In this document: piece after piece, positions 31,335-60,639 of the stretch
Position numbering within the stretch: the stretch's first letter is position 1
Layout: each line of letters begins with the position of its first letter
Virus record (IMG/VR): IMGVR_UViG_3300035698_032497
Origin: a virus
Lineage: Duplodnaviria > Heunggongvirae > Uroviricota > Caudoviricetes
Length of the DNA: 64,000 nucleotides
Direction: 5' to 3' (one strand)
The notes under the pieces: model-generated
Databases searched by the model: none
What the model saw: the letters and a program-made list of their open reading frames with translations, nothing else
Told to the model about the DNA's origin: nothing
Made by a program: the position numbers and the translations under genes

Positions 31335-31370
31335 TTGACGGGATATGTTCGACCTGCTACTAACAGTAGC
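31335..31370 (+). promoter_or_regulatory. class-B promoter TTGACG-17-TACTAA with hairpin GCTAC-TAACA-GTAGC at +1
   Basis: TTGACGGGATATGTTCGACCTGCTACTAACAGTAGC. Confidence 0.5.
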
Positions 31371-31393
31371 GAATCAACCATGGAGCGCAAGCC

Positions 31394-31666
31394 ATGAACA
31401 CCAAGACCCGTCTCGGGTTCACCTGTGTCCTTTTCTTGGCCTTTCTCGTGTCCGTCCTCTTCCTCGAGGCCGAACCCAACACCGAGCTGGCCGTTGCTCA
31501 GGTGGCCTCCGGCGCCGACCATGCGGCCATCCAGGCCAACTACCTCTACGAGTATGGGACGCACGCTGTGTCCCTGGGGATCGCCGTGGTCCTCGCATTC
31601 CTATGGGCTGGGCCGGCATACCGCCTCATCAGCCCCGTCATCGACACCCAAGACACCAAGAAGTAG
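31394..31666 (+). CDS. membrane protein
   Basis: 3 TM helices. Confidence 0.5.
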   Translation: MNTKTRLGFTCVLFLAFLVSVLFLEAEPNTELAVAQVASGADHAAIQANYLYEYGTHAVSLGIAVVLAFLWAGPAYRLISPVIDTQDTKK

Positions 31667-31670
31667 AGCC

Positions 31671-32627
31671 ATGAAGCTCACCTACACCATCGCCGTCATC
31701 GCACTCACCTTCGCCCTGATGGGGTGCGGCCCCGTGCGGGTCGATCCCATCGAGGAGATCAACAGCTCGGAGACTGCCTTCGTCGTGCCCCTGGAGGGTG
31801 ATACCTCCGGCCAGGCCAAGTTCGACTCCGTCGAGCTGTATGAGAGTGCCAAGGTCGCCGCCAAGCGCGTCACCATCAGCCAACGCAAGCGCAAGATCGG
31901 GCGCTCGTGGCGCGCCTACGAGTGGGTCCCCACCGTGCGGCTCATCAAGGTCAACCGCAAGCCCATCACGGTCAACTGGTCCAAGTCCGGCGACCAGGCC
32001 CTGTGCGTCGAGAGCAAGGACTCCATCGCCTTCTGTACCGGCACCGACCTGACCGCCGAGATCCATGAAGAGGACGCGTCGACCTACCTGTACAACTACG
32101 GCGACAAGGACCTGTCCGCGGCCATCAACGAGGACGTGCGTTCCTTCCTCATCTCTGTGGTCACCCGTGAGTTCGGATCCCGTGACCTGGTCACCGGCAA
32201 GGAGGAGAAGGGCAAGATCATGGAGACGGCCAAGGCCGAGGTCGTCGAGCACTTCGCTACCAAGGGCATCACCGTCACCAACCTGGGGCTCACTGGCGGC
32301 CTGAACTACATCGACCCTGCCATCCAGGAAGCCATCAACCGCACCTTCGTGGCCGAGCAGGATGCCGCGACGGCGACCGAGGAAGCCAAGGCCGAGACGG
32401 CCCGCGCCGAGATCGTGCTCGAGAAGGCCAAGGGCGAGGCCGCGGCCGCCAAGGAATGGGCCACGTCCCTGAACGCTCGCCAGGCCCAGATCCGGCTCGA
32501 GATCGAGAAGATGAACGCCCAGGCCCGCCTGGCGTGGGCCCAGAAGTGGAACGGCGAGCTCCCTGCGAGCATCCTGCCCCAGGGATCCGAGCTCATCATG
32601 AGCTTCGACGAAGCGCCGACCCAGTAG
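31671..32627 (+). CDS. SPFH/band-7-like lipoprotein
   Basis: Lipobox LMGC; A/E-rich coiled segment typical of SPFH C-termini. Confidence 0.55.
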   Translation: MKLTYTIAVIALTFALMGCGPVRVDPIEEINSSETAFVVPLEGDTSGQAKFDSVELYESAKVAAKRVTISQRKRKIGRSWRAYEWVPTVRLIKVNRKPITVNWSKSGDQALCVESKDSIAFCTGTDLTAEIHEEDASTYLYNYGDKDLSAAINEDVRSFLISVVTREFGSRDLVTGKEEKGKIMETAKAEVVEHFATKGITVTNLGLTGGLNYIDPAIQEAINRTFVAEQDAATATEEAKAETARAEIVLEKAKGEAAAAKEWATSLNARQAQIRLEIEKMNAQARLAWAQKWNGELPASILPQGSELIMSFDEAPTQ

Positions 32628-32708
32628 GCGCCCTGCTTACATTGACCCACGGGTGAGCCTCATGCTCACCGTCGCGCCCGGGGCCTCTGGCTCCGGGCGT
32701 TGCTGCGT

Positions 32709-35048
32709 CTACTCTTCGTCACCGAGCTCGTCGAGCTCACTGAGCTGGTCCTCGATTTCGCGGAGCACGGCTGCTGCGGTCTTGACTTTCGCGATCTTGG
32801 TGGCCGGCGCTCTGCCCTTGGAGACTTTCCGCAGCGTGCGGCGCTGGTCTCGGTCCAGGGTGAGCTCTCCGGTTCGGCTCATGGCGGTCATGGGCACCGT
32901 GATGTCCGGGTGCAGCCAGATGTGCTCTGGAGAGCTGGTGACCTCACCGATGACGTCTTCTTCTTCGACGCGCTCCTCGTCGAGCTTCTTCTTCTGGGTA
33001 ACAGTGACCAGGACCTTGGCCTTCAGCATCGCGTCCAGCGCGCTATGCTTGGAGCTGGCGATGGTGGTGCCGTAGCCTCTATCTTCGTCGGGGGCATGGA
33101 CATCCCATCTCGGGATCTGTATCCAGTCGTGGGATCCGTTGGCCACGATGGTCATGAACGATTCCGAGTACTCGGGATCCTGACTGTCTTCGTACAGCTC
33201 GAGGACCCAGTCGCCGCCATGGCTTTCGAAGTCGTTGTAGCTCACCTTTCCGATGACACCGTCGATGGACTCGGAGAGGAACTCCAGCTCGGCCTTGACG
33301 TTGGCCCAGGTCTCTTGTCCATACACGCTGGCGTCATGCTCGTTGAAGCACTCCAGCATCCACTTTGCGAACCCGAAGACCGTGAGCTCGTCCTTGTCGA
33401 CCTCGGCCATGTACTCGATGAGGTCTTGACCATGGCGGTCGGTGATGTACTTCTCCAAGAAGCTTGCGAGCTTCTTCTCCCTGCGCCCGTGCTCCTCGAA
33501 CTCCTCGTCCCCCCATTCTTCTTCATCGTAGCCATGGTCGCTGTAGAAGCTGCGCAGACCGCAGTCGTTGATGGCGGCTTCGAAGTTGTCGATGTTTTCG
33601 TAGGTCTCCTGGTACCAGGACATATTGCAGTCGAGCTCTTCCTGGATGGATAGGGACTTTTGGTTTTGCTCGAGGGTCCACTTGCTTTTCTCGTCTTCTC
33701 CGTCATCTTCGGGGATTTCGTTCTCACGCTTCATCCACTCGGGGATGGCACCGCCCGGAATGGAGAGTGGAAGCGACGGGCCTCCCAGGGCCCAGACGTG
33801 ATCGTCGAGATCGGTGTCCAGCAGGCTATCCAAGAACCACTTCATGCGCTTCGCGGCGGTCTTGTCCGTGACCTGGTGGTTGTCGTGACCCTTGAGGTCC
33901 ACGACCATGGTCCACTCGCCACGGATCGGGATTTCGCCGTCGTGGATTTTCGAGATCTTCTCTTTCTTCCACCCGTAGGGCGGGTACCAGTTCTCGTCGT
34001 CGTTCTTCTCGGTCAGCATCAGGTCGTCGCCGACATGGTTTTCGTCGATGCTCAGGGCCGCGGTACCCCATGGTTTGCCGCTGTCGTCTCGGATGGAGAA
34101 GATGATCTCGGTCCCCTCCCTGACGTAGCTCCAGTGGCCACCGACGCAGTGGCCCATGCTCTTGCCCTCTTCCTCGCACTCCTTGGCCGTCACCAGCCTG
34201 TCGATGTGCCAGCCATCGGGCCAGGTCACGACGGTGACCCCGGGGGTGACGGGGGACTTGTAGTCGGCTTGACCGATGAACTGCTGGTGCCATTCATGGC
34301 TTCTGCGCTGGACTTCTCCGATGCTCATGCCCATGATGTTCGGCCGCTCTTCCTCGATCCAGTCGATGACGTCGGGCATGCCGCCAGGTCTGTAGCCTTC
34401 CTCTTGCAAGCCGACGCGTTCGTCGAAGCCGATCCAGTCGATGTCGTTGGCGACGGGATAGCCGCGGAAGAACTCGTGGAAGTCGCCGTGACCGCTCAGG
34501 CCGTGGGGAGGAATGTAGCCCTGAGGGGCGTTTTCGTCGTGCCAGCGAACGATCCTGGCGCACTCCGAAGCCAGCCATGGAATCCACGGGTCCCAGCGGG
34601 AGTTGGCACCTGGTTCGGGTATGATGTCGGGGTGAGGCATCCAGTCTACCGGAAGCTTGACCCACGAGTTCCCTCTTCCGTGGCTCGCGTTCCATACGGA
34701 TCTGACCGCGAGTCCGCGGCGTTTGCCTGCGTGCTCGGCCATCTGTGCATGGTAGTGGGTTGGGTTTTGAATCAGGTGGCTGTCGATCTTCCATATCAGT
34801 CGGTTTCGATCTGGGATCGTGAACGCCTGGGCGTCATCCAGCAGCTCCCACAGCAGGTAGCGGGCCCTGGCGTCTTGCAGCTGCGAGAACGCCCACAGCA
34901 GCCTGGTGCGAGTCCCGGAGCGCGCCGTGGGTGCCCCACGCAGGCCGGACAAGTTCACCAGCCGGTGCCAGGAGCCCTTCATGCGTCCCTGGCCGGGAGC
35001 GAGGACGAGGGCGGAGATGATGGAGAGGGCTTGCATCGGGCGTAGCAT
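32709..35048 (-). CDS. large hypothetical protein, GHC-motif paralog family
   Basis: 779 aa; …WPDGWHIDRLV…EEGKSMGHCVGGHW…IFSIRDDSGKPWGTAAL…. Confidence 0.7.
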   Translation of the reverse strand: MLRPMQALSIISALVLAPGQGRMKGSWHRLVNLSGLRGAPTARSGTRTRLLWAFSQLQDARARYLLWELLDDAQAFTIPDRNRLIWKIDSHLIQNPTHYHAQMAEHAGKRRGLAVRSVWNASHGRGNSWVKLPVDWMPHPDIIPEPGANSRWDPWIPWLASECARIVRWHDENAPQGYIPPHGLSGHGDFHEFFRGYPVANDIDWIGFDERVGLQEEGYRPGGMPDVIDWIEEERPNIMGMSIGEVQRRSHEWHQQFIGQADYKSPVTPGVTVVTWPDGWHIDRLVTAKECEEEGKSMGHCVGGHWSYVREGTEIIFSIRDDSGKPWGTAALSIDENHVGDDLMLTEKNDDENWYPPYGWKKEKISKIHDGEIPIRGEWTMVVDLKGHDNHQVTDKTAAKRMKWFLDSLLDTDLDDHVWALGGPSLPLSIPGGAIPEWMKRENEIPEDDGEDEKSKWTLEQNQKSLSIQEELDCNMSWYQETYENIDNFEAAINDCGLRSFYSDHGYDEEEWGDEEFEEHGRREKKLASFLEKYITDRHGQDLIEYMAEVDKDELTVFGFAKWMLECFNEHDASVYGQETWANVKAELEFLSESIDGVIGKVSYNDFESHGGDWVLELYEDSQDPEYSESFMTIVANGSHDWIQIPRWDVHAPDEDRGYGTTIASSKHSALDAMLKAKVLVTVTQKKKLDEERVEEEDVIGEVTSSPEHIWLHPDITVPMTAMSRTGELTLDRDQRRTLRKVSKGRAPATKIAKVKTAAAVLREIEDQLSELDELGDEE

Positions 35049-35085
35049 AGCACGCCGTGTTCGGGCAGACAGCCGTGTTCGGCCC

Positions 35086-35114
35086 TTGCCACTGACAGTA
35101 GAAAGTGTTAGCTT
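35086..35114 (+). promoter_or_regulatory. class-A promoter TTGCCA-17-(TG)TTAGCTT
   Basis: TTGCCACTGACAGTAGAAAGTGTTAGCTT; divergent from the large minus-strand gene. Confidence 0.6.
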
Positions 35115-35134
35115 TCATTGGCAAGGAGGTGGCT

Positions 35135-35431
35135 TTGTATCTGCCACTCACCGATGTCGTCCTGATCTCCGTGTGGACGGTCATCTTGGTCGTGCTCTGT
35201 CTCGCCGCTTGGTGGAGCTGTCGTAGGCTGGCACAGAAACGACTGGAACGGCGTCTCTTCGTTGGTGACACTGGGCGAGAGGCCTCTCCTTCGAGACCCG
35301 AGGCCGTCTTTGCTGGACACGATTTTCCAGCGGGGCCCGAGATCGTGAGCGTTGAGCTCGAAGATCCAGAAGAGCTGTTCGAAAGAATGGACGCTGGGCC
35401 AAACTCCAACAACGACCCTGTCGAACAGTAG
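35135..35431 (+). CDS. small membrane protein (TTG start)
   Basis: AAGGAGG RBS 6 nt before TTG. Confidence 0.4.
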   Translation: MYLPLTDVVLISVWTVILVVLCLAAWWSCRRLAQKRLERRLFVGDTGREASPSRPEAVFAGHDFPAGPEIVSVELEDPEELFERMDAGPNSNNDPVEQ

Positions 35432-35475
35432 CGCCACGAGGCAGCCATGCTCCGCGATAGAGCGCAGAGAGAAGG

Positions 35476-36006
35476 ATGAATACGATGGAAGAGCACGAAA
35501 TCAGTCACGCCGATCAAGAAGCCGAAGGCAGAGCCGTCGAGGGTGCGGACCGCGTGGACGACCCCGACTTCGACAGGCGGGCGCTCAGGCGGCGGCTCGA
35601 GGCTATCCCCCCGGATCTTCGCGAACAGCTCGCCTCCGAACCCGGTCCCGGCTGGTTGTGGTGGTACGGGTCCAGCAAGAAGCTGCCGACCATGCAGAAG
35701 TGGCACTATGGCGGCCTGCAGAAGAGCGCCCTGACCGCCAAGCCGCTCACTCCTCACCCGGACGTTCCGGTGGTCCTGCGTGGCAACTCCGAGCTGTCCA
35801 TTTGGCTCCCGGCTTCTCCCAGCTCCATCAACAGGGCCACCATCTCTGTGGTCGGATCCAAACGTTTCTGGCGCATGACCATGAACCGTGCGCTGGACCT
35901 GAAGATGTCCCACAGCGAGTACGAGCCGACCATGAACATTGGCGAGGCCCTGCGCATGTTGATGGGGGTGCTGGGTGAGGTCTCCGTGCGAGAGCTGGGT
36001 GATTAG
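35476..36006 (+). CDS. hypothetical protein
   Basis: AGAGAAGG RBS. Confidence 0.5.
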   Translation: MNTMEEHEISHADQEAEGRAVEGADRVDDPDFDRRALRRRLEAIPPDLREQLASEPGPGWLWWYGSSKKLPTMQKWHYGGLQKSALTAKPLTPHPDVPVVLRGNSELSIWLPASPSSINRATISVVGSKRFWRMTMNRALDLKMSHSEYEPTMNIGEALRMLMGVLGEVSVRELGD

Positions 36007-36008
36007 AG

Positions 36009-36428
36009 ATGAAGAAGCGGGTCAGGAACAAGGTACGTAGGCGCGTTGCCGAGGCGGTGTGGGGGAAGTGGAAGGACCGACGCGGCCGCCCCAGCGGACA
36101 CTTCAGGAGCTACGAACGGGGCTGGACCAAGAACCGATGGATCCCTGGATTCTCCATGCCAGGCCACAGCCTCGAGCAGATGAGGAAGGCAGGAGTCGCC
36201 CACCTGGACGGTGACACGCTCATCATCCACAGGGAAGGTAGTGGAAGATGTCCACGTTCGGTGTTTCTGAGTGAGAAGAGCAAGTGGGCCGTCATGTGCG
36301 GCCGGATGATATGCACGAGTCGGGGGCATTTGTTCGTCAACGGGTACGAGGGTGAGTGCCCGTTCGAGGGGGATGTTGTGGGGCACCATCCGCGCTCGAG
36401 GCATCTCGATGGTCACTTCGTGAAGTGA
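36009..36428 (+). CDS. Zn-finger/HNH-like small protein
   Basis: Cys cluster and GHHPRSRHLDGH. Confidence 0.35.
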   Translation: MKKRVRNKVRRRVAEAVWGKWKDRRGRPSGHFRSYERGWTKNRWIPGFSMPGHSLEQMRKAGVAHLDGDTLIIHREGSGRCPRSVFLSEKSKWAVMCGRMICTSRGHLFVNGYEGECPFEGDVVGHHPRSRHLDGHFVK

Positions 36429-36433
36429 CGTGT

Positions 36434-36462
36434 TTGCCACTCCTGGTGGAAGGTGTTATGTT
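36434..36462 (+). promoter_or_regulatory. class-A promoter TTGCCA-17-(TG)TTATGTT
   Basis: TTGCCACTCCTGGTGGAAGGTGTTATGTT. Confidence 0.6.
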
Positions 36463-38196: not shown

Positions 38197-38234
38197 TTGA
38201 CCTTCACCCTTCATCGTGCTACTCATGGTAGCAC
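38197..38234 (+). promoter_or_regulatory. class-B promoter TTGACC-17-TACTCA with hairpin GTGCTAC-TCATG-GTAGCAC
   Basis: Lies upstream of ATG 38252. Confidence 0.5.
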
Positions 38235-38251
38235 ACGTCGAGGAGAACATC

Positions 38252-39304
38252 ATGCAGAACGACTCTCTGGCCTTGGCCGATCAGGCTCCTCCTGCCCTCA
38301 TCCCCGGTGACCAGGTTCCCGGTGAAGGCCAGGTTCATGACTCGAGCGAAGGGATCGAGACACAGGCCGCGCACATTCTGGCCAAGAGCACCCAGGACAT
38401 CCTGCTGCTGCTGGCCGGTGGCATGACCGCCGAGAACGCTCCCCAGGTGTTGATGAAGATCCAGGCCTTGGCCCAGACACAGCGGCAGCTGCTGCCGTAC
38501 TTCGGTGGATTCGTGCACCCAGAGCAGGATCCCAAGCGACGTCAGCAGCAGCTGAACACGTCGATGGGGGTCAAGAAGCGCTCGAGGGGTGGTAGCGCGG
38601 AGTCGCACGCAGCTCGCTCCGTCCAGGAGCTGATGGCCATGGCGGGTCGGCTGCAGGCTGCCTGGACGTTGCCCCAGACCATCCGGGCGGTCGGCGAAGC
38701 GAAGAGCGCTGGTATGCCCGACGTGGCCGAGCGGCTCGAGAAGCAGGTTCGGGACCAGATGGGCGTCGCGGGTCCCGGTATCGGGATCAGCAAGGATGAC
38801 CAGGACAAGGTCGTCGAGCTGTTGACCGACCATGTCGATCGGCGCTATGGCGGCCACGGCGGCTACAGCGCAGGTGGGATCAGTGTCTCCTCGAGCGGCT
38901 ACGCGGTCAGTGGGACCGCCTCGATGGACCATGGTGAGCCCAACAGTGGCTTGACTCTCGAGATGCCAGGGTCGGGTGGCGCCTTCATCGATCCGATGGA
39001 CATGGGCGACGAAGACGACGTGGGCATGGAAGACCCGGGGCCGTACGGTTCGATGCTGTCCGATCTCGCCGAGGAGGGCATGGCCATCGGAGCCGCGATG
39101 TCCTCGGATTCAGGCTATGCGTCGGCCGCTATGCCGAACCCTGGCCTGCCCATCACGCCTCTGTTCGGAGATATCGTCGGCGGCAACGGCCAGGTCTACA
39201 GCGACATCGAACAGCTCCCTCCGTACGTCATCGGCTTCGAGGCCGATGGTGCGACGCTGGCGAACAGCGGGAGCCCCAACGTCACCCCTGACGGGGCCTG
39301 GTAG
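38252..39304 (+). CDS. hypothetical protein
   Basis: GAGGAG RBS. Confidence 0.5.
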   Translation: MQNDSLALADQAPPALIPGDQVPGEGQVHDSSEGIETQAAHILAKSTQDILLLLAGGMTAENAPQVLMKIQALAQTQRQLLPYFGGFVHPEQDPKRRQQQLNTSMGVKKRSRGGSAESHAARSVQELMAMAGRLQAAWTLPQTIRAVGEAKSAGMPDVAERLEKQVRDQMGVAGPGIGISKDDQDKVVELLTDHVDRRYGGHGGYSAGGISVSSSGYAVSGTASMDHGEPNSGLTLEMPGSGGAFIDPMDMGDEDDVGMEDPGPYGSMLSDLAEEGMAIGAAMSSDSGYASAAMPNPGLPITPLFGDIVGGNGQVYSDIEQLPPYVIGFEADGATLANSGSPNVTPDGAW

Positions 39305-40736: not shown

Positions 40737-41657
40737 ATGGAGATCGAAGTCCTCCCTTGTGCGACGCCCTGGCTGGTAGACAGCCAGAAGTACCGGCTGT
40801 TTGTGAGCTTGAGCCGTCCCACCTTGCGCGACCTGTTGCAGCTGGGGACCGGCAGAGAGCGTGGCTACGCGTTCACGTTGTTCAGGCGTGGCCGTCAGTG
40901 GCACACGGGGAATGAGTGGAACTACCCTCCACGCCATGTCGCAGCCCTTCGGGTGGTTCCCGACATCCTGCGGAGGCTGCTGGTCGACGACATCGAGTGC
41001 TCTGGAATGTTTCCGAGGCTCGAGTCCCTGCTGTCTCACGAGGTCTTCAGGCGTGAGGAGGGAGCGTTCGGCAAGCCGTGCATGGTCCATGTCGATCTGA
41101 CGCGGCTCGAGATGCAGGGGGTCCTGACGCGGCGACGTTGGCAGAGGCTGACCGACTACGTTGTTCAGCTCATTATGGCCAGGAGCCTGCTGTCTGGGAG
41201 GCCGATAGACAGATCCGAGACCGCGATCAACAAGCCCCGTTTCGCCAAGAAAAACTACGGACACAAGTACGGTGAGAAGCACCGATCTTGCCGTAGCCCC
41301 AACGCGGATCAGATCGCGCGAGCCATCGAGCGTGAGGCTACCACGCCCTACCGAAAGAGCTCGAGGAACGGCTGGCGACTGTACAGCGCCAGGTGGCTGG
41401 GGCCCACCAAGGGCTCAGCCTTCTACATCTTTCCGGATCTGTGGGTGGCTTCGATCTTCATGGCCCGTGGTAGCTATTGGCCGTATCCTTTGCCCGATGA
41501 TCACGCTGAGCGCTTCGAGCTCGAGGATCCACTCCGTGATCGTGTCTTCATGGATCCATCGTTCACCGGGCTGTGGAGACGGAGCATCGACGAAGACCCT
41601 GCGATGACCGCTGGAGAGCGAGGAGACGATGTCGTCGACCTCGACCGTGACGAGTGA
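40737..41657 (+). CDS. hypothetical protein
   Basis: 306 aa. Confidence 0.5.
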   Translation: MEIEVLPCATPWLVDSQKYRLFVSLSRPTLRDLLQLGTGRERGYAFTLFRRGRQWHTGNEWNYPPRHVAALRVVPDILRRLLVDDIECSGMFPRLESLLSHEVFRREEGAFGKPCMVHVDLTRLEMQGVLTRRRWQRLTDYVVQLIMARSLLSGRPIDRSETAINKPRFAKKNYGHKYGEKHRSCRSPNADQIARAIEREATTPYRKSSRNGWRLYSARWLGPTKGSAFYIFPDLWVASIFMARGSYWPYPLPDDHAERFELEDPLRDRVFMDPSFTGLWRRSIDEDPAMTAGERGDDVVDLDRDE

Positions 41658-41669
41658 CCGTGCTACCAG
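41641..41669 (+). promoter_or_regulatory. class-B-like promoter TCGACC-17-TACCAG
   Basis: Followed by CAGTAGTGGAG, a degenerate hairpin. Confidence 0.35.
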
Positions 41670-41707
41670 TAGTGGAGTGAGCGGCTCCGGAGAAAGGAGA
41701 GAGATCG

Positions 41708-48232: not shown

Positions 48233-49951
48233 TCAGTCCCCCAGCAGCGCTGCGGCCTTCTGCGCTACCAGCGCCAGGCCTTGGGCGGGGTCGCTCTCCA
48301 GCAGGCCGCGGACCAGGGACAGGCCCAGGGCTGTGGGATCGGAGACCGGCATGGTGGTGGCGATGCCGGGGGCGAGTGGACGTACGCCGCCCTTCTCGCC
48401 GGCCATGACGGGGTTGAACTGGAAGACGGGGGTGTCGATACCCATGCGGCGCACCGCGGCCAGCACCTCGGCCACACGCCCTGCGGGGGCGTTCTCGTAG
48501 CCGTCGGAGACGATGAACAGCACGTCTGGGGTGGCTCCTGGCGCGAGATCGGAGTCGTAGCGGAGGGCCTTGATGACGGCGGAGGCGATGGAGGTGTCTC
48601 CGGCTGGCCGGACGAGCTCGACAGGGAAGCTGTCGGCTTCCGCATCGGGTTCACCACCACAGTAGAACGTCTTGGCGCTCTCGGTGCAGGTCGCCATCAG
48701 GGTGTCGCGCATAGACAGGGCGATGGACATCGGGCGCAGCTTCTGCTCATCCGATCCGGCCATGGATTCGGAGCAGTCTACGACGATGGCCACGTGTTCG
48801 TAGCTCATGCCGAGCACGGAAGCGGCAGTGTGCGCCTTGCGGGCGATGGCCGCGGCGACGCGCTCGTCCAGCCCGACCTCGAAGGCGTGGACCCACAGCT
48901 GCACCAGGCCGAGCTTCATCGGATCGAACTCGACCTCGATGCCGGCGGACTTGGCGCGCTTCTGGACAGCACCCCGCTGACGCTGGGTCATGGAGCCGCC
49001 CTTTCCCTTGGCGTTGGTGCGGCTGGTCAGCGCGATGACGTCGTCCTTGGAGACGGTGGGGTGGTAGTGGCCCCGGATGCCCTCGAGCACCTCGGGGGGC
49101 AGCACGGTGCCCTTGGCCAAGTCGAGCCTGGCCTCGTAGAAAGCGAGGAACAGACCGGAGCGCCAGGTGTGGTGCTCCAGCTTGCGGCCGGCGATGAAGG
49201 CGAGGGCCTCGGCGAGACGGACGGGCTTGTCGATCCCGGTGTCGAGGAAGATGCCGGTGTCGACCGGATGCATTGCGCTGATGAACTGTACGAAGGCTCT
49301 CTCTCGAGGATCGCTGGGCGGGACCTGTTCCGCAGCCAGGTTGTCCAGCCAGGTCGCGGCCGAGCTGCAGATCACGCCGAACTCACGGCTCCCGAGGGCG
49401 TGCTTCAGCGCGCTCTTGATCTTGCCGCGGTACTTGACGCTCCACCAGTGCAGCTTGGTAGAGCCGATGATGGCCCCGAGGATGACCTTGCGCGTCCGCT
49501 TGTTGTTGACGCGTCGCTTGCGCAGCTCGTCGAACAGCTTGAACATGCGCTGGGGCGGCAGCTGGCTGATGAGCTTGCTGATCACCATCCACTCATCGGG
49601 GTTTACGACGTTGGTGACAGAGCTGTCGATGGGAGAGGACAGCAGGCGCAGCAGGGCCTGGCTCTTGGCGCGGTCCAGGGCCCCGGGCATGGCGGCCAGC
49701 GCGCCGTAGATGCGGCGATCGACCATGAAGGCCCGGTCGTGGACCAGGGCCTCGGCGGCATCCTGCTCTTCGCGGGTGTTGTAGGCGGTGGCGCGGCCGG
49801 TGCCGGTGCCGATGAGGTCCATCCAGGACAGGATCGCCGTGCCGGCGGCGACGGCGTTTCCGTTGGACTGGCCGGAGACCAGGGCCTGTGGTACATCGCT
49901 CAAAGGCCTGTCGAGCAGGCCCAGGGCGAGGGTCGAGATTTCGGTGTTCAT
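48233..49951 (-). CDS. rsr: TROVE/Ro60-like (Rsr-like) protein with C-terminal vWA domain
   Basis: C-terminal vWA with MIDAS DCSESM (DxSxS) in the last third, as in Ro60; alpha-helical N-terminal ~380 aa; two tRNA-like RNAs immediately upstream; start at the ATG with a GGAGGA RBS. Confidence 0.5.
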   Translation of the reverse strand: MNTEISTLALGLLDRPLSDVPQALVSGQSNGNAVAAGTAILSWMDLIGTGTGRATAYNTREEQDAAEALVHDRAFMVDRRIYGALAAMPGALDRAKSQALLRLLSSPIDSSVTNVVNPDEWMVISKLISQLPPQRMFKLFDELRKRRVNNKRTRKVILGAIIGSTKLHWWSVKYRGKIKSALKHALGSREFGVICSSAATWLDNLAAEQVPPSDPRERAFVQFISAMHPVDTGIFLDTGIDKPVRLAEALAFIAGRKLEHHTWRSGLFLAFYEARLDLAKGTVLPPEVLEGIRGHYHPTVSKDDVIALTSRTNAKGKGGSMTQRQRGAVQKRAKSAGIEVEFDPMKLGLVQLWVHAFEVGLDERVAAAIARKAHTAASVLGMSYEHVAIVVDCSESMAGSDEQKLRPMSIALSMRDTLMATCTESAKTFYCGGEPDAEADSFPVELVRPAGDTSIASAVIKALRYDSDLAPGATPDVLFIVSDGYENAPAGRVAEVLAAVRRMGIDTPVFQFNPVMAGEKGGVRPLAPGIATTMPVSDPTALGLSLVRGLLESDPAQGLALVAQKAAALLGD

Positions 49952-50039
49952 GGCGTCCTCCATCATCATGGAGGGACAGTGGGGCCGAGCTGGGGTGCCG
50001 AGGGGTCGTGAACAAAGAGCGGTTTTGACACCGCGACTT

Positions 50040-50125
50040 CCTGGGTGTGAACCAAGCGCTCTACTCTGAGCTATCTTTTCTGAAACCTCGGCCGAGCTCT
50101 CGGCCCTTGACTGTACCTCCGTTGA
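50040..50125 (-). ncRNA. degenerate tRNA-Val(CAC)-like structure inside the rsr 5' leader
   Basis: Minus-strand GGTTTCAGAAAAGA-TAGCTCAGAGTAGAGCG-CTTGG-TTCACAC-CCAGG…, followed by the GGCCGAGAGCTCGGCC hairpin. Confidence 0.3.
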
Positions 50126-50150: not shown

Positions 50151-50186
50151 GCTACTACTGGTAGCAAGGAGAAGGGTGCACGTCAA
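50151..50186 (-). promoter_or_regulatory. class-B promoter (minus): TTGACG-17-TACCAG + hairpin GCTAC-CAGTA-GTAGC
   Basis: Minus strand reads CTCTTGACGTGCACCCTTCTCCTTGCTACCAGTAGTAGC, about 200 nt upstream of the rsr ATG. Confidence 0.5.
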
Positions 50187-50417: not shown

Positions 50418-50471
50418 TATCTCTCGAGGGGTTCACGTAGAGGGGCTGGGGTAGGGGGTCGAGGGGGTAGT

Positions 50472-50549: not shown

Positions 50550-50854
50550 TGAACCGTCGACAAAGTTCCCAGCACCTGCTGCGTGATCCTCCCCATGGAA
50601 GGCGATCGGAGTGGCCGGCGAGCGGGATGCTCGCCGGCCGTTGACCGGCTTCTTCCTGGGGGGGGAAGATGGTATATTCAAAGAAGAAAAGGGTAGAGGC
50701 CGGGTGTGGGAGCGTCGCTTATGGGGTTGACCATTAGCAATGAATCCTGGAGCAACGCAGCAGCTCCGACCGTCTCGCACACGAACTTACAATACTCTAC
50801 GGAGCGTGTCAACGGCATCGTCGACTTTTCTTTGATATTTCCCGATCCGTCGTT

Positions 50855-52198
50855 GTGGTCGGTTTCGGTTATGATGATGGAACGATGATCGCCACCCAGC
50901 TCATCACCTCACTCTGCTCAGCTCCTGACGGGGCACGGCGTGGGGTACTGCACGAGCTCGAGAACCTCGCCAACGTGGAGGACGTCAGGCTGACGAGCAG
51001 GCCGCTGCGAAGGGTCGATGCCCGGTTCGAGTGGCTCGAGGCCCAGTTCGGTCCCTGCGTTCGCCATGTGACCGAGGCGCTACTGATCAAGCTCGGGTAC
51101 ATGGTCTTCTCGAACGACTATCCCAAGCTGGCGCCTCTGATTCCATGGATCGGGCGAGAGATCCACAGGCTGCGGAAGAGCTTCCCAGAGGCCTGGGTCT
51201 TCCTCGATGCTGCCTGTGCACTGGACGTGGCCTGGGACGATGATGGCGGGATCTTGGCGACCGTGCTCGATGCGGTCCCTCGCTTGGTCGAGGACAACCG
51301 CACGGTGATCGACTGGTACATGGAGCTGGACCGCCGCCCGGACATCCTTCGTATGGACATGAAGGACGCCTTCGACGATGCCCATGCCTGGCATGAGCAG
51401 CTGCGGGTCAGCGCAGAGAAGGGGATGCCGCGCCCGGGCGTAGTCGTGCTCAACATGGGTCCGCTGCTCGAGAGCGGAAGAGCGGATGGATGGACCCTTC
51501 AGGAGCTGGACACCCGCAAGCGCATCGAGGTCGAGGGCAAGACCATGGGCCACTGCGTCAGCGGTCTGCACTACTGGGAGGGGGTCAGGGATGGTCGGTT
51601 CCGCATCTTCTCCTTGAGGGACCCGGCTGGCCGCCCATGGGCGACGCTGCAGGTGGGCATTACAGGAGACAGTCCGGAGATCATCCAGGTCAAGGGTCGT
51701 GGCAATGTCAATGTCGCCAACTATGAGTCCGGAAAGCTCGATGGGCTGGATGATGGCGCCACCTGCATCATGATCCGGGATCTTGCGGTCATCGCTGCGG
51801 TTTTCCTCCTGACAGGCTCCACGACGATAGGGAGCGAGGAGCTCGATCTGGTCAAGGAAGCGGGAGACATGCGGATGTCTGTCGGTCTCTTCGGTCAGCC
51901 ATGGCCGGAGCTGGATGGCGAGGACGACGAAGACGAGCACGACGAGCACACGTTCCCCCAGGTCTTGGCGTGTCCAGCGTGCGGTAACGTCAACAGCGAC
52001 GATATCAGCGCCTACGTCAACACGGGGATGAGGATCCACATCTCTGCCATGGACGGTCAGCGCAGCAGGACCGTGTCCCTCTCCGCTGGAGACGGCTACG
52101 AGTGGGGAGCTCACGAGTTGAAGCTGGAGTGTCTTCAGTGTGCGCACGAGTGGGATTTCCCGGTGGACGACATCGCGCACACCTACGATGCCTGGTAG
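50855..52198 (+). CDS. large hypothetical protein, GHC-motif paralog family, C-terminal zinc ribbon
   Basis: …DGWTLQELDTRKRIEVEGKTMGHCVSGLHYW…RIFSLRDPAGRPWATLQ…; CPACG…CLQC. Confidence 0.65.
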   Translation: MVGFGYDDGTMIATQLITSLCSAPDGARRGVLHELENLANVEDVRLTSRPLRRVDARFEWLEAQFGPCVRHVTEALLIKLGYMVFSNDYPKLAPLIPWIGREIHRLRKSFPEAWVFLDAACALDVAWDDDGGILATVLDAVPRLVEDNRTVIDWYMELDRRPDILRMDMKDAFDDAHAWHEQLRVSAEKGMPRPGVVVLNMGPLLESGRADGWTLQELDTRKRIEVEGKTMGHCVSGLHYWEGVRDGRFRIFSLRDPAGRPWATLQVGITGDSPEIIQVKGRGNVNVANYESGKLDGLDDGATCIMIRDLAVIAAVFLLTGSTTIGSEELDLVKEAGDMRMSVGLFGQPWPELDGEDDEDEHDEHTFPQVLACPACGNVNSDDISAYVNTGMRIHISAMDGQRSRTVSLSAGDGYEWGAHELKLECLQCAHEWDFPVDDIAHTYDAW

Positions 52199-52301: not shown

Positions 52302-52330
52302 TTGACCCCCTCTGCCACCCTGGGTAGAGT
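52302..52330 (+). promoter_or_regulatory. class-A-like promoter TTGACC-17-TAGAGT
   Basis: TTGACCCCCTCTGCCACCCTGGGTAGAGT; about 460 nt upstream of tRNA array 2, with no convincing ORF in between. Confidence 0.45.
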
Positions 52331-52788: not shown

Positions 52789-52865
52789 GTCCCCGTAGCT
52801 CAGATGGATAGAGCACCTGATTGCGGATTAGGAGGCCCCAGGTTCGAGTCCTGGCGGGGACGCCA
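52789..52865 (+). tRNA. tRNA-Arg(GCG)
   Basis: Anticodon loop TTGCGGA; acceptor GTCCCCG/CGGGGAC. Confidence 0.75.
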
Positions 52866-52873
52866 TTTTTAGA

Positions 52874-52950
52874 GCCCTGGTAGCTCAGCTGGATAGAGCG
52901 CTGGCCTTCGGCACCAGATGTTGGGGGTTCGAGTCCCTCCCAGGGCGCCA
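52874..52950 (+). tRNA. tRNA-Arg(TCG)
   Basis: Anticodon loop CTTCGGC. Confidence 0.8.
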
Positions 52951-52955
52951 TCTTC

Positions 52956-53032
52956 GTCCCCATAGCTCAGCTGGACAGAGTGCTGGTTTCCGGTACCAGA
53001 GGTTCCAGGTTCGAGTCCTGGTGGGGACGCCA
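52956..53032 (+). tRNA. tRNA-Arg(CCG)
   Basis: Anticodon loop TTCCGGT. Confidence 0.85.
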
Positions 53033-53050
53033 TCTTCTTCACCCTTTTTT

Positions 53051-53127
53051 GGGGCATTGGTCTAGCGGTCAAGGACACCGGCCTGTCACGTCGGAAGCCA
53101 CGAGTTCGAATCTCGTATGCCCCGCCA
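53051..53127 (+). tRNA. tRNA-Asp(GTC)
   Basis: Anticodon loop CTGTCAC. Confidence 0.85.
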
Positions 53128-53142
53128 TTTTGTACGTTCACC

Positions 53143-53218
53143 GGGCCTATAGCTCAACTGGGAGAGCATCGGACTCTTAATCCGAAGGTCGAAGGTTCGA
53201 TCCCTTCTGGGCCCACCA
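53143..53218 (+). tRNA. tRNA-Lys(CTT)
   Basis: Anticodon loop CTCTTAA. Confidence 0.85.
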
Positions 53219-53270
53219 CTTCTCCTCTTACGTCTCGAGCGCTTCTTCCTCTCATTGCGAAGGAGCTTAG

Positions 53271-53340
53271 TTGGGTTCGAATCCCATGGCCGGGCACCGC
53301 TGGCAACCACCCGCGACCCGGTTTGTGAGCCCTGGATAGG
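53271..53340 (+). pseudogene. tRNA-like fragment (T-arm TTGGG-TTCGAAT-CCCAT then CCTGGATAGG D-loop-like)
   Basis: T-arm remnant is followed by a D-arm-like segment; possibly another permuted or decayed tRNA. Confidence 0.2.
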
Positions 53341-53363
53341 CCTAAAGCGCTCCCCCTTTTCGT

Positions 53364-53440
53364 GCCCCAGTAGGCTAGCGGTCCAGGCCGTCGCCCTCTC
53401 ACGGCGAAGCTCGCGAGTTCGAATCTCGTCTGGGGTACCA
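53364..53440 (+). tRNA. tRNA-Glu(CTC)
   Basis: Anticodon loop CTCTCAC; acceptor GCCCCAG/CTGGGGT. Confidence 0.85.
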
Positions 53441-56690: not shown

Positions 56691-56692
56691 GC

Positions 56693-57804: not shown

Positions 57805-57855
57805 CGTTCTTCGTACGAGATAGCGTTGAGTCTCTCGAGACGGTAAGATGCCCGC

Positions 57856-60396
57856 ATGAGCATCGTCATCTCCATCACGACAGCCCTGATTGCGCACCCA
57901 GACAAGGCCTCCAGGCGGTCTGCGCTTCAGGCGGTGGCTGGACGCTCTGGACTGGATGTCCGGGCGATCATGGGCCGCACTCGGGACGACACGCCGGAGG
58001 GCCTGGTCAAAGAGACCATGGAGAAGGCCCATCGCTGCGCACCGATCTGCGGCGAGATGGTCGAAAGAATGCTCCGTCCTGGGAACATCGGCGTGTTGAA
58101 TGATGACGGTAGCATTGCCATCGACAACCGGAGAAGGGCCGACGTGCTGGCTATGCTCCCGTGGATAGCCAGGAATCTCTGTTCCGAGTACCGCTCTGCC
58201 GAGGAGGGCGTCAAGGACGCGTCTGTCGTCACCTTGTACGGCAAGCTGTGGTCTCCGGCCGGGGGAGGAAAGCGGGGGACCGTTTTTTGGAACATCAGGA
58301 CATGGGAACGGACCAATGGGACGCAGATCGAGTCCATGACCCTCGAGATGGCCATCGAAGCGGTCAAGCTTTGGATCCCCGAGGACGAAGCAGCCTGCCA
58401 TGACGATGACGGCCCGAGTGCGGTAGTCCCCGCGGTGCAGGTGGTCTCCTGGCGAGATGGTGGCCGAATCGACAGGCTGGTGGACTACCGCCAGTTCGCC
58501 GCAGAGGGAAACGCCATGAACCACTGCATCGGCGGCAGTAACCAGGGGACGTGCGAGGCGGACGGCAGGAGTGACTACTGGCAAAAGAGCCGTGACGGTC
58601 AAGGTGGAGCCTTCTCCTACCGCTATGTCGAGCAGCAAAATCCGTACGTATCGGACAGACTCCTCGGGCTTCCCGAAGGCACGATCTGGTTCAGGCTCGA
58701 TCCACTCAGGCTGACCGACGCCTACGGCTTCGACGATCAGGAGATCGAGGATCGGGTCGCCAGGGAGAGGTTGGTTCGGTTCCTGGTCTCGACACCTGGA
58801 GCCCCCCAGGTTCCCATGGTGCTCCGCACGTCACACCTGGAGCCCTTCCGATCCGAGCTTGGTGTTGGGATACCTGTTCACCACGTTGATCTCGACGAAG
58901 AGGACGAGGATCACGACGAGGACGACTACGACGAGGGCAACCATGACGAGGACGACGAGCATCAGGAGCACGGAGTTCCGGGCGCGTTGCCGGCCGACCT
59001 GTTGCCGGAGATGCCCGGGGAGCCAGAAGGCGCTCACGCTGAGATGGTTGCCACGGCAAACCTGGCGTTGACGCAGGCCGTCAACGAGCTGCGGACGCGG
59101 CTCGCACAGGGCATGGCTCCGACCGATGCGCTGGCTGCGCCCTCGGAGGTCGACGTTCCTTTCCCTGGTGGGCCTTATCCGAACTGGTTCATCGTCGTCG
59201 GATGCCTCGAGAGTCTGCTGCGTGGCAGGTTCGGCATCCAGGGACGTAGAGGGGAATACTTCTATCAGCAGAGACCCTGGGACGAAGACGACCCGGCGAT
59301 CTCCATCACGCTCGGCGCGGACGGGACGCAGCACTTCGAGATCGAGTTCGATCCGATCTTCGATCCGTCATCTCAGATCCCGGGCCTCCAGGGCGTTCCG
59401 GTGGTTCCGGCCTGGCTGCGCAACCTTGGCGTTGACAGTGTTGGTGTGAGGTTCGATGTCGATCCAGACAGGGAGCAGCCCACCGACATCCTGCTCGAGG
59501 TCGATCTGTACCGAGGCCCGGACATCATCGAAGAAATGCAGGCGCCGTTGGATGCGTTTTTGGGGCCGTTCGCCGAGAAGTTCACCGAGATCGTGCGTGA
59601 GCGGGGCGATGCCGAAGAAGACGCCGAGATCGAACCCGAGGCCGAAGACGATCTTCCGGCTCCCATCGATCTCTGGCTGATCGATACTGCCACCGGCAGA
59701 ATCGAGGCCTGGGACGATCCACAAAATCCCCACACAGGAGACGATGTTCATGCCCTGGGGCTGGCTCGTCAGGCCGTAGCCGCCGATGCCTGGACGCACC
59801 CCGTCTACAACAGGGTGCAAGCACTCGAGGCTTTGGGCCTCCACGACGGTGGGGATGAGATCGAAGATGACGACGGAGACGTCGACGAGATCGAACAGTT
59901 CGGTGCCGACTACGAGCCCGACGCCGGTTCGGAGCTCCCCGACATCATCCTCGTTCCACCGAACCTGATCTTCGGCGCCAGCCGCAACCTGATGCGAGGT
60001 ATCGGGCACGACAGTCCCTCTGGCCGGGGCACCGCGCTGTTCATCCCGTACCCTGACGAGGAGAACAAAGCGTGGACGATCTCCAGCCGGGACAGGGCCA
60101 TCGAGCTGTACGTGCAGCATGAGCTGCGCGGCAGGGGACCCTGGCCGAGCGAAAACGGAAGCCTCCTGATCATCCTGCCGCACGCCAGCGGATCTCTGCC
60201 GGGTGCGACTCCTCCGGTCGATGTCCTGTTCGCGGAGCTCAACGCCCGCTTCCCGGGCGGTCTGGCCATCGCGCTCGAGGACCTGGACGATCGAATGGTG
60301 GCCAGGTGGCGCAGGACAGCCGAGCGGAACGACATTCCGATCTTCGAGACCGCCTCCGAGGCCATCGAGGACCATCGCGAAGCCGAAGAGGAGTAG
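57856..60396 (+). CDS. large hypothetical protein, GHC-motif paralog family, acidic repeats
   Basis: …VSWRDGGRIDRLVDYRQFAAEGNAMNHCIGG…; DEEDEDHDEDDYDEGNHDEDDEHQEH. Confidence 0.65.
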   Translation: MSIVISITTALIAHPDKASRRSALQAVAGRSGLDVRAIMGRTRDDTPEGLVKETMEKAHRCAPICGEMVERMLRPGNIGVLNDDGSIAIDNRRRADVLAMLPWIARNLCSEYRSAEEGVKDASVVTLYGKLWSPAGGGKRGTVFWNIRTWERTNGTQIESMTLEMAIEAVKLWIPEDEAACHDDDGPSAVVPAVQVVSWRDGGRIDRLVDYRQFAAEGNAMNHCIGGSNQGTCEADGRSDYWQKSRDGQGGAFSYRYVEQQNPYVSDRLLGLPEGTIWFRLDPLRLTDAYGFDDQEIEDRVARERLVRFLVSTPGAPQVPMVLRTSHLEPFRSELGVGIPVHHVDLDEEDEDHDEDDYDEGNHDEDDEHQEHGVPGALPADLLPEMPGEPEGAHAEMVATANLALTQAVNELRTRLAQGMAPTDALAAPSEVDVPFPGGPYPNWFIVVGCLESLLRGRFGIQGRRGEYFYQQRPWDEDDPAISITLGADGTQHFEIEFDPIFDPSSQIPGLQGVPVVPAWLRNLGVDSVGVRFDVDPDREQPTDILLEVDLYRGPDIIEEMQAPLDAFLGPFAEKFTEIVRERGDAEEDAEIEPEAEDDLPAPIDLWLIDTATGRIEAWDDPQNPHTGDDVHALGLARQAVAADAWTHPVYNRVQALEALGLHDGGDEIEDDDGDVDEIEQFGADYEPDAGSELPDIILVPPNLIFGASRNLMRGIGHDSPSGRGTALFIPYPDEENKAWTISSRDRAIELYVQHELRGRGPWPSENGSLLIILPHASGSLPGATPPVDVLFAELNARFPGGLAIALEDLDDRMVARWRRTAERNDIPIFETASEAIEDHREAEEE

Positions 60397-60592
60397 CTCG
60401 TAACGCTCTCCGTTCTTCTTGGTGCATACCACCAAGGAGGTCGCCATGTGCGACGAGGAGCGGGATGAGCCGAAGACCGAGCTCGATGAAGCATAGCAGC
60501 AGGCCTGGGACGAGATCGTGATAGCGGGAGAGGACGCGCTCGAGAAGAGGCTGCGTGAAGGCCCGGAACCGGAAGATGTCTGCTACACCGGC

Positions 60593-60639
60593 TTGACGCT
60601 GATCGACTGATGAGATAGCATTGCTACCAGCAGTAGCAA
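60593..60639 (+). promoter_or_regulatory. class-B promoter TTGACG-17-TAGCAT + hairpin TTGCTAC-CAGCA-GTAGCAA
   Basis: Ends 10 nt before ATG 60649. Confidence 0.5.

What the first reader, a model, noticed from the sequence alone, without database searches (positions are those of the whole stretch)
31335..60639. Class-B promoter variant: -35 TTGACG/TTGACC, -10 TAC…, with the GCTAC-N5-GTAGC hairpin placed at the transcription start
Five copies were found: 31335, 38197, 41641 (degenerate), 60593 on the plus strand, and 50151-50186 on the minus strand driving the Ro60-like gene. All share the same 17-nt spacing.

Here the palindrome sits immediately downstream of the -10 (e.g. GTGCTAC-TCATG-GTAGCAC). 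It would therefore sit at the 5' end of the transcript or act as a roadblock or +1 operator.

The same palindrome in two different positions relative to the promoter suggests one regulator using two regulatory logics.
Basis: seen in the sequence. Interest (0 to 1): 0.55.

Follow-up and report, generated by a model that had tools for sequence, protein, structure and literature searches.

The report
Phage promoters with a built-in operator palindrome
A set of promoters in an uncultivated 385-kb phage carry a conserved 15-17 bp palindrome laid over the promoter's -10 element and start site, which is most likely the docking site of an unidentified repressor and not an RNA hairpin; this is a solid but fairly ordinary kind of phage gene control.

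Summary
The motif is real. GCTAC-N5-GTAGC occurs 5 times against 0.02 expected, and TTGACS-N17-TAC occurs 5 times against 0.26.

Four of the five reported copies share one geometry: a -35 TTGACS, 17 nt, then TG-C-TAC. In these the left palindrome arm is itself the extended -10/-10, and the palindrome spans about -14 to +1. The fifth copy (60593) differs. Its -10 is TAGCAT and its palindrome lies 9 nt further downstream. I found two more copies, at 4383(-) and just beyond the window end.

In the one related phage lineage available, three orthologous sites keep the -35 (18/18), the T plus left arm (18/18) and the right arm (14/15). The spacer (19/42) and the palindrome centre (9/15) drift.

The left arm lies upstream of the predicted start, so a 5' RNA hairpin is not supported.

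The same dyad (half-site TGCYACYR) sits at five different registers across the phage's promoters, always inside the core promoter. The simplest reading is one dimeric repressor that occludes RNA polymerase. No regulator was identified and no transcription start is mapped. "Two regulatory logics" remains possible but is not needed.

This is a new member of a known kind.

The parts
31335..31371 (+). Class-B promoter. -35 TTGACG 31335-31340; TG 31355-31356; -10 TACTAA 31358-31363; dyad GCTAC TAACA GTAGC 31356-31370. It lies 23 nt before the ATG at 31394 (90-aa protein, followed by an SPFH/Band-7 protein).
   Evidence: Ortholog L005:721-756 is conserved. Band_7 hit.
38197..38234 (+). Class-B promoter. 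-35 TTGACC 38197-38202; -10 TACTCA 38220-38225; dyad GTGCTAC TCATG GTAGCAC 38216-38234. It lies 19 nt before the ATG at 38252 (350-aa ORFan, first of four co-directional genes).
   Evidence: Orthologs L005:9945-9980, L006 and L007 are conserved.
41641..41676 (+). Degenerate class-B copy. TCGACC-N17-TACCAG; dyad GCTAC CAGTA GTGGA 41662-41676. It starts 5 nt after the stop codon of the upstream gene and lies 31 nt before the ATG at 41708 (DUF7768 / nucleoside deoxyribosyltransferase-like).
   Evidence: In the relative only TGGACC-N17-TAC and the left arm TGCTACCA survive.
50151..50186 (-). Class-B promoter. -35 TTGACG 50186-50181; -10 TACCAG 50163-50158; dyad GCTAC CAGTA GTAGC 50165-50151. It drives a Y-RNA-like RNA and then the Ro60-like operon.
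   Evidence: Ortholog L003:232-267 is conserved, with the centre changed to TCCTG.
60593..60637 (+). Variant promoter. -35 TTGACG 60593-60598; 17 nt; canonical -10 TAGCAT 60616-60621; dyad TTGCTAC CAGCA GTAGCAA 60621-60639, covering about -5 to +11. The ATG is at 60649. Not found at the orthologous gene of a relative.
   Evidence: L008 and L009 lack it.
4348..4383 (-). TTGACG-N17-TACTAC; weak dyad GATAC TACCA GTGTC 4362-4348. It lies 29 nt before the ATG at 4318 (195-aa gene, then dnaE 3704-141).
8977..36462 (+). Class-A promoters, given for context. Pattern: TTGCYAC-N5-GTRGM-a-GG-TG-n-TAnnnT, where the -35 is the left arm of the dyad and the spacer is 17 nt. The -35 starts are at 8977, 12167, 12497, 18557, 19700, 20405, 21654, 30422, 35086 and 36434. 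A class-A-like copy lies at 50812-50784(-).
   Evidence: Orthologs of 35086 and 36434 are kept in L005.
24387..24415 (+). Third register. TTGACG-t-GCCAC TGGTG GTGGC-a-TACAGT, with the dyad filling the 17-nt spacer.
52302..52330 (+). Fourth register. TTGACC-N6-GCCAC CCTGG G-TAGAGT, with the right arm overlapping the -10. It lies upstream of the tRNA cluster at 52789-53440.
49973..50120 (-). Y-RNA-like RNA transcribed from the 50186(-) promoter. A long stem formed by its 5' and 3' parts encloses a tRNA-like domain (50080-50011).
   Evidence: Rfam tRNA hit, 42.5 bits. 33 predicted pairs, 7 of them compensatory between the window and L003.
48233..49951 (-). Ro60-like protein (572 aa): an alpha-helical ring followed by a VWA domain.
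   Evidence: AF2 model pLDDT 85. Best PDB fold match is Ro60 9nep_A. No TROVE Pfam hit.

Best explanation
Class B is a housekeeping-sigma-type promoter with three parts: a -35 TTGACS, a 17-nt spacer, and an extended -10 TG-n-TAC. A 15-17 bp dyad, TGCTAC-N5-GTRGC(a), has been written into it. The left arm of the dyad doubles as the TG and TA of the -10 region, and the right arm ends at about +1.

The dyad is a DNA site for an unidentified dimeric DNA-binding protein, either phage- or host-encoded. When occupied, it covers -14..+1 and stops RNA polymerase from binding or opening the promoter, which is repression by occlusion.

The same dyad sits in the phage's other promoters at other registers: over the -35 in class A, in the spacer at 24387, over the spacer/-10 junction at 52302, and at about -5..+11 at 60593. 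One protein could therefore shut down most of the recognisable promoters of this region.

**Shown:** the motif, its over-representation, its fixed geometry, its orientation to genes, and its conservation.

**Inferred:** the start site, protein binding, and the sign of regulation.
For: **Over-representation.**
- Exact palindrome: 5 against 0.02 expected.
- TTGACS-N17-TAC: 5 against 0.26.
- Relaxed dyad: 8 perfect against 0.2 simulated.
- Of 24 near-perfect sites, 13 lie in the 15% of the window that is non-coding, and the count inside genes equals the chance expectation.

**Position and orientation.** Every copy faces a gene start 12-32 nt away, or a structured RNA.

**Conservation against the relative** (52-66% protein identity), at three orthologous sites:

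| Segment | Identical |
|---|---|
| -35 | 18/18 |
| T + left arm | 18/18 |
| right arm | 14/15 |
| spacer | 19/42 |
| upstream flank | 23/60 |
| dyad centre | 9/15 |

**One half-site everywhere.** The half-site is TGCYACYR in all registers.

**The left arm is also read as a -10.** Its Y is T in 6/6 class-B sites (9/9 with the relative), but only about 44% T in all other arms. This points to a second constraint on those bases, the TA of the -10.

**The -35/-10 framework is real.** Five promoters whose -10 lies outside the dyad all have TAnnnT at 17 nt. More distant phages have a plain TTGACA-N17-TAnnnT at the equivalent place upstream of their Y-like RNA, with no dyad.

**All dyads lie within the polymerase footprint.** The five registers have centres at about -26, -21, -16, -7 and +3.
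Against: - No transcription start is mapped.
- The class-B -10 hexamers are TACTAA, TACTCA, TACCAG (twice), TACTAC and TACTGA. They lack the canonical T at position 6 in every copy, and the strict scan does not call them. They may be weak, or they may need a factor.
- No HTH, sigma or other regulator was recognised among about 60 window proteins.
- Only one related lineage is available, so the arms show conservation but no informative variation.
- The uniform register of about 11 class-A copies is not what a freely placed operator predicts. It leaves room for an activating or polymerase-recruiting role there.
- The 60593 site is not found at the gene's homologues in L008 and L009.
Confidence: 0.55

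Rival explanations
1. One dimeric factor with two opposite effects. It activates, or substitutes for the -35 contact, at class A, where the dyad is at -33..-19 and the -35 is always the imperfect TTGCYA. It represses at class B, where the dyad is at -14..+1. Together this would give a temporal switch.
For: - The class-A register is strictly uniform over about 11 copies, and its -35 always departs from TTGACA at position 4.
- Class B has a perfect -35 but a poor -10.
- The gene sets differ. Class A drives a methyltransferase-like gene and an anti-restriction-like gene. Class B drives dnaE, the Ro60-like/ARPP operon and a deoxyribosyltransferase-like gene.
Against: - A dyad centred at -26 within a 17-nt spacer is a usual repressor position and an unusual activator position (own knowledge).
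- Three further registers exist (24387, 52302, 60593) that fit neither 'logic' but do fit occlusion.
- There are no expression data.
Confidence: 0.2
2. The palindrome acts as an RNA hairpin at the 5' end of the transcripts, serving stability, processing or translation control.
For: - The hairpins would be moderately stable as RNA, at -6.5 to -9.5 kcal/mol for the perfect copies.
- Conserved arms with a variable loop also fit a hairpin.
Against: - With -10 = TACNNN, the left arm lies at -14..-10 and is not transcribed. At 60593 the predicted start falls inside the palindrome.
- There are no compensatory changes. One outer pair is simply broken in the relative (GTAGC to GTAGA) and in 41662.
- In class A the same dyad is upstream of the -10, and several copies cannot pair at all (0 kcal/mol).
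- It does not explain TTGACS at a fixed 21 nt upstream of the dyad.
Confidence: 0.07
3. The dyad is itself part of what a dedicated polymerase or sigma reads, for example a phage sigma factor or an N4-type polymerase that recognises an extruded DNA hairpin. On this reading it is not a separate regulator's site.
For: - The class-B -10 is non-canonical in every copy.
- The stem and loop sizes (5-7 bp, 3-5 nt) and the position just upstream of +1 recall N4 early promoters (own knowledge).
- Nearly every recognisable promoter here carries the dyad.
Against: - The strictly conserved TTGACS at 17 nt, the TG motif, and canonical TAnnnT hexamers whenever the dyad is elsewhere all point to ordinary sigma-70-type recognition.
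- The dyad sits at five different registers relative to -35/-10, which a polymerase-recognition element would not do.
- No polymerase or sigma was found in the window.
Confidence: 0.08

Closest known systems
Phage repressors with many dispersed operators: P1 C1, phiC31 c repressor with its conserved inverted repeats, mycobacteriophage L5 gp71 stoperators (own knowledge, not tested here)
   Same: One short motif is repeated at many promoters and intergenic sites across a phage genome. It overlaps core promoter elements at varying positions, and a single protein could silence many transcription units.
   Different: - No repressor has been identified, and neither lysogeny nor any immunity function is shown for this 385-kb phage.
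- The P1 and L5 sites are asymmetric, whereas this one is a dyad.
- Here the motif is fused to the -35 or to the extended -10 in fixed registers.
Operators overlapping -10/+1 in sigma-70 promoters (classical steric occlusion, e.g. lambda- or LexA-type arrangements; own knowledge)
   Same: A dyad with about 10 bp between half-site centres lies over -14..+1 of a promoter that has a consensus -35 and a 17-nt spacer.
   Different: - The half-site TGCYAC doubles as the TG-n-TA of the -10.
- The -10 lacks T at position 6 in all copies.
- Binding is untested.
Extended -10 (TGn) promoters
   Same: TG lies one base upstream of the -10 hexamer in all class-B copies and in most class-A copies.
   Different: Typical extended -10 promoters compensate for a weak -35. 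Class B has a consensus -35 and a weak -10.
Controller (C) proteins of restriction-modification systems such as C.PvuII, with activating and repressing operators (PMC2647307, seen)
   Same: It is a precedent for one dimeric regulator whose effect depends on which operator position it occupies.
   Different: - The C-box sequence is different.
- It involves two adjacent operators at one promoter, not two promoter classes.
- No C-protein homologue was found here.
Bacterial and phage Ro60 (Rsr) with YrlA-type Y RNAs (PMC4201824)
   Same: A Ro60-fold protein is preceded by RNAs with a tRNA-like domain and a long stem closed by the 5' and 3' parts. Rfam YrlA matches at 50409-50297(-), E 3e-6.
   Different: - The protein has no detectable TROVE sequence match.
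- The YrlA score (36.9 bits) is below Rfam's gathering score of 69.
- This concerns what the 50186(-) promoter drives, not the promoter itself.

Membership tests
Sigma-70-type promoter | -35 hexamer close to TTGACA | tested here: met
   TTGACG, TTGACC or TTGACT in 6 of 7 copies, and TCGACC in the degenerate one. It is 18/18 conserved in the relative.
Sigma-70-type promoter | Spacer of 17 +/- 1 nt to the -10 | tested here: met
   The spacer is exactly 17 nt in all copies. Its sequence is free to vary, at 19/42 identity between orthologs.
Sigma-70-type promoter | -10 hexamer TAnnnT (A at position 2, T at position 6) | tested here: not met
   TA is present, but position 6 is A, G or C in all copies that overlap the dyad. 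The strict scan calls none of them. Only 60593 (TAGCAT) is canonical.
Sigma-70-type promoter | Extended -10 TG | tested here: met
   TG-n-TAC is present in all class-B copies and in the orthologs.
Sigma-70-type promoter | Mapped transcription start and polymerase dependence | not testable with these tools
   There are no transcript data, and the host is uncultivated and unknown.
Repressor operator overlapping a core promoter | Dyad symmetry with half-sites one helical turn apart | tested here: met
   Both halves read TGCYACYR, with centres about 10 bp apart, in all registers.
Repressor operator overlapping a core promoter | Over-represented and confined to promoter regions | tested here: met
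Repressor operator overlapping a core promoter | Half-sites conserved and centre variable in relatives | tested here: met
   Arms 32/33 (T + left arm 18/18, right arm 14/15) against centre 9/15. Only one related lineage is available.
Repressor operator overlapping a core promoter | A cognate DNA-binding protein | tested here: inconclusive
   No HTH or regulator family was found in about 60 window proteins. About 300 kb of the genome was not examined. The only DNA-binding domain seen is an NrtR-like winged helix outside the window.
Repressor operator overlapping a core promoter | Binding and repression demonstrated | not testable with these tools
   This needs EMSA, footprinting or reporter assays.
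5' RNA stem-loop | Both arms lie within the transcript | tested here: not met
   By geometry from the -10 assignment, the left arm is at -14..-10. This is an inference, because the start is not mapped.
5' RNA stem-loop | Compensatory base changes | tested here: inconclusive
   The arms are invariant between lineages. The only changes break a pair.
N4-type hairpin promoter | A dedicated single-subunit polymerase, with no -35/-10 dependence | tested here: not met
   A conserved -35 sits at a strict 17 nt. No polymerase was found in the window. The rest of the genome was not searched.

The most novel reading that the evidence does not exclude
A single phage-encoded dimer uses a half-site (TGCYAC) deliberately compatible with both the -35 hexamer (TTGCYA) and the extended -10 (TG-C-TAC). 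It takes over sigma's contact at one promoter class while blocking sigma at the other. This would be a one-protein early-to-middle switch in a huge phage of an uncultivated, possibly planctomycete, host.
Probability: 0.15. Interest if true: 0.55.

Novelty: new member of a known kind. Interest (0 to 1): 0.35.

Why it matters
Regulatory signals of huge uncultivated phages are almost unknown. This work gives a concrete and conserved promoter grammar for one 385-kb phage and its relative:
- a -35 TTGACS or TTGCYA;
- a 17-nt spacer;
- a TG-extended -10;
- a 17-bp dyad.

With it, transcription units can be drawn, a regulator can be fished out with a defined DNA bait, and promoter classes can be compared in metatranscriptomes.

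The design detail that one operator half-site is compatible with both the -35 and the extended -10 is neat. It is still a variation on well-known promoter-operator overlap, not a new principle.

Tried and rejected
**Searches for relatives.**
- Megablast and tblastn against the phage collection found no close relative; only about 35% DnaE hits came back.
- The class-A DNA pattern gave 0 hits in IMG/VR. In GTDB genomes it gave 11 single hits in unrelated taxa, which is chance level.
- The protein-based metagenome scan returned only the relative already in hand; L019 is 99.995% identical to L005.
- IMG/VR relatives of the Ro60-like gene (about 40% identity, L010-L018) and L004 lack the dyad.

**The 60593 site.** Homologues of its downstream gene (L008, L009) have a different upstream context and no dyad, so its conservation could not be shown.

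**The regulator.** Pfam and PHROGs scans of about 60 window proteins gave no HTH, sigma or polymerase.

**Literature.** A search for the arm sequences together with operator and repressor terms gave nothing specific.

**Ideas rejected.**
- *Class B uses a distinct GCTAC-specific factor, as opposed to GCCAC in class A.* The right arms of class B are as mixed as those of class A. Only the left arm is fixed to T, which the -10 TA explains.
- *The palindromes are intrinsic terminators.* They have no T-run, and the terminator scan did not call them.
- *Class B is a class-A promoter read from the other strand.* Only 60623(-) gives a plausible -10, and with a 16-nt spacer.

Full report
**Source and context.**
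- The window is part of a 385,225-bp metagenomic contig, ENA ERZ27316532 k141_1542414.
- Its GC content is about 62%.
- It encodes a DnaE-type polymerase and 30 tRNAs in four clusters.
- Most of the other proteins scanned have no family match.
- Nothing close exists in the phage collection. It is a huge, uncultivated phage.
- Homologues of its Ro60-like protein are mostly in Planctomycetota MAGs and in other huge phages.

**Checking the observation.**
- All five sites are present at the stated coordinates.
- GCTAC-N5-GTAGC occurs 5 times against 0.02 expected.
- TTGACS-N17-TAC occurs 5 times against 0.26 expected.
- A relaxed dyad, GCYAC-N5-GTRGC, occurs 8 times against 0.2 simulated.
- Of 24 near-perfect sites, 13 fall in the 15% of the window that is non-coding. 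The number inside genes equals the chance expectation of about 7.

**Geometry.** Aligning the sites gives the following picture.
- Sites 31335, 38197, 50186(-) and the degenerate 41641 share TTGACS (TCGACC at 41641), then 17 nt, then TAC.
- In every one of these, a T precedes the left arm. The sequence therefore reads TG-C-TAC, which is an extended -10 TG plus the TA of a -10 hexamer.
- The palindrome therefore spans about -14 to +1. It is not downstream of the -10.
- Site 60593 differs. TTGACG is followed after 17 nt by a canonical TAGCAT, and the palindrome begins 2 nt later, at about -5 to +11.
- Two more class-B copies exist. One is at 4383-4348(-), upstream of a 195-aa gene and dnaE. The other is at L021:12670-12705, about 700 nt beyond the window end.
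- All copies face a start codon 12-32 nt downstream of the dyad. The exception is 50186(-), which faces a structured RNA.

**Conservation.** One related lineage was found, with 52-66% protein identity and synteny over about 20 kb (L005 = L019, L006, L007, L003). Three orthologous class-B sites are retained. Summed over the three:

| Segment | Identical positions |
|---|---|
| -35 hexamer | 18/18 |
| T + left arm | 18/18 |
| right arm | 14/15 |
| spacer | 19/42 |
| 20 nt upstream | 23/60 |
| central 5 nt of the dyad | 9/15 |

- The degenerate 41641 site keeps only a -35-like hexamer and the left arm in the relative.
- The 60593 site is absent upstream of the homologous genes in L008 and L009.
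- More distant huge phages (about 40% identity) have no dyad. They carry a plain TTGACA-N17-TAnnnT at the equivalent place upstream of their Y-like RNA.
- The dyad is therefore a lineage-specific overlay on an ordinary promoter framework.

**What the dyad is.**
- The same half-site, TGCYACYR, appears in both halves and in all promoter classes.
- It is found at five registers relative to the -35/-10 frame:

| Register | Where | Sites | Approx. dyad centre |
|---|---|---|---|
| 1 | over the -35 (class A, TTGCYAC...) | about 11 copies | -26 |
| 2 | filling the spacer | 24387 | -21 |
| 3 | over the spacer/-10 junction | 52302 | -16 |
| 4 | over the -10 to +1 (class B) | 7 copies | -7 |
| 5 | about -5 to +11 | 60593 | +3 |

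- All of these lie within an RNA polymerase footprint.
- In class B, the variable Y of the left arm is T in 6/6 copies (9/9 with the relative). It is T in only about 44% of all other arms, including the right arms of class B. This means those bases also serve as the TA of a -10.
- The five promoters whose -10 lies outside the dyad all have TAnnnT.
- Together this argues for an independent protein-binding dyad superimposed on sigma-70-type promoters. Its half-site happens to be compatible with both TTGCYA (the -35) and TG-C-TAC (the extended -10).

**The RNA-hairpin reading.**
- With the -10 at TACNNN, the left arm is at -14..-10 and is not transcribed. At 60593 the predicted start falls inside the palindrome.
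- The arms do not covary. They are invariant, or a pair is simply lost: GTAGC to GTAGA in the relative, and GTGGA at 41662.
- Several class-A copies cannot pair at all.
- A hairpin also gives no reason for TTGACS to sit at a fixed distance.
- I therefore reject the 5' hairpin option. The caveat is that the start site is inferred, not measured.

**Mechanism.** The best-supported model is a dimeric DNA-binding protein that occupies the dyad and excludes polymerase. At class B this means covering the TG, the -10 and +1.

The weak points are these:
- The class-B -10 lacks T at position 6 in all copies, and the strict consensus scan does not call these sites.
- No regulator was recognised in the window.
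- The strictly uniform class-A register leaves open an activating or sigma-replacing role there.
- A dedicated polymerase or sigma reading the dyad is unlikely, given the five registers and the conserved -35 at 17 nt.

**What class B drives.**

| Promoter | Downstream genes |
|---|---|
| 31335 | a 90-aa protein and an SPFH/Band-7 protein |
| 38197 | four ORFans |
| 41641 | a DUF7768 / deoxyribosyltransferase-like protein |
| 4383(-) | a 195-aa protein and dnaE |
| 60593 | a 309-aa ORFan |
| 50186(-) | a Y-RNA-like RNA, then the Ro60-like gene, an ARPP-1/ARPP-2 protein and, further on, a C5 DNA methylase |

Class A drives, among others, a methyltransferase-like gene and an anti-restriction-like gene. 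This difference is compatible with temporal classes but does not prove them.

**Verdict.** This is a real, conserved promoter class with an embedded operator-like dyad. The observation needed correcting in its geometry. The hairpin-in-transcript idea is not supported, the operator idea is the best fit, and the sign of regulation and the regulator remain unknown. It is a new member of a known kind.

Noticed in passing
window 49973-50900 (-): A dense non-coding RNA region lies upstream of the Ro60-like gene. In order on the minus strand:
- a class-A-like promoter (50812);
- a GGGAACT...GTTCAG stem plus a tRNA-Val(cac)-like element (50549-50475);
- an Rfam YrlA match (50409-50297; 36.9 bits, E 3e-6, below the gathering score);
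- the class-B promoter;
- a second Y-like RNA (about 50120-49973) with a long closing stem around a tRNA-like domain, showing 7 compensatory pairs against the relative.

The same layout of tRNA-like RNA, Ro60-like gene and ARPP gene recurs in nine IMG/VR huge phages.
   Followed up: partly
window 48233-49951 (-): The 'Ro60-like' protein has no TROVE Pfam match and only a weak VWA hit. However, its AF2 model (pLDDT 85) has Ro60 (9nep_A) as its only strong PDB fold match. It appears to belong to a divergent Ro60 family shared by Planctomycetota MAGs and huge phages.
   Followed up: yes
window 4383-4458 (-): A 47-nt tandem duplication carries two TTGACG hexamers per copy, four in all. It lies directly upstream of the class-B-like promoter of the 195-aa gene and dnaE. 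It may represent stacked promoters or a duplicated upstream element.
   Followed up: no
window 60610-60639 (-): On the minus strand the 60623 dyad reads as a class-A-like promoter: TTGCTAC TGCTG GTAGC aa TG c TATCTC, with a 16-nt spacer. It points leftwards into the 252-nt gap after the 846-aa gene. The plus-strand -10 TAGCAT and this minus-strand TG-c-TA share the same bases. Whether a divergent or antisense transcript exists is unknown.
   Followed up: no
window 26346-26374 (+) and 52302-52330 (+): Two tRNA clusters (26665-28346 and 52789-53440) are preceded by TTGACG-N17-TAGTCT and TTGACC-N17-TAGAGT respectively. The second carries the dyad across the spacer/-10 junction. The first has only a half-site-like GCCAC.
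   Followed up: partly
L021:17282-20329 (same contig, about 5-8 kb beyond the window end): An NAD synthase gene is followed by a NUDIX plus NrtR-like winged-helix protein. This is the only recognisable DNA-binding domain seen near the window. No dyad lies upstream of that gene cluster, so it is not an obvious candidate for the dyad-binding factor.
   Followed up: no
window 32709-35036 (-) and 50855-52198 (+): Two large proteins have weak PcfJ-like domain matches. One sits between class-B and class-A promoters. The other diverges from the Y-RNA region.
   Followed up: no
window 18506-19261, 30282-30704, 38225-39304: My ad hoc gene calls put three starts too far upstream. Class-A or class-B promoters lie inside the called 5' ends, and better starts with Shine-Dalgarno sequences follow them, at about 18592, about 30468 and 38252.
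   Followed up: partly
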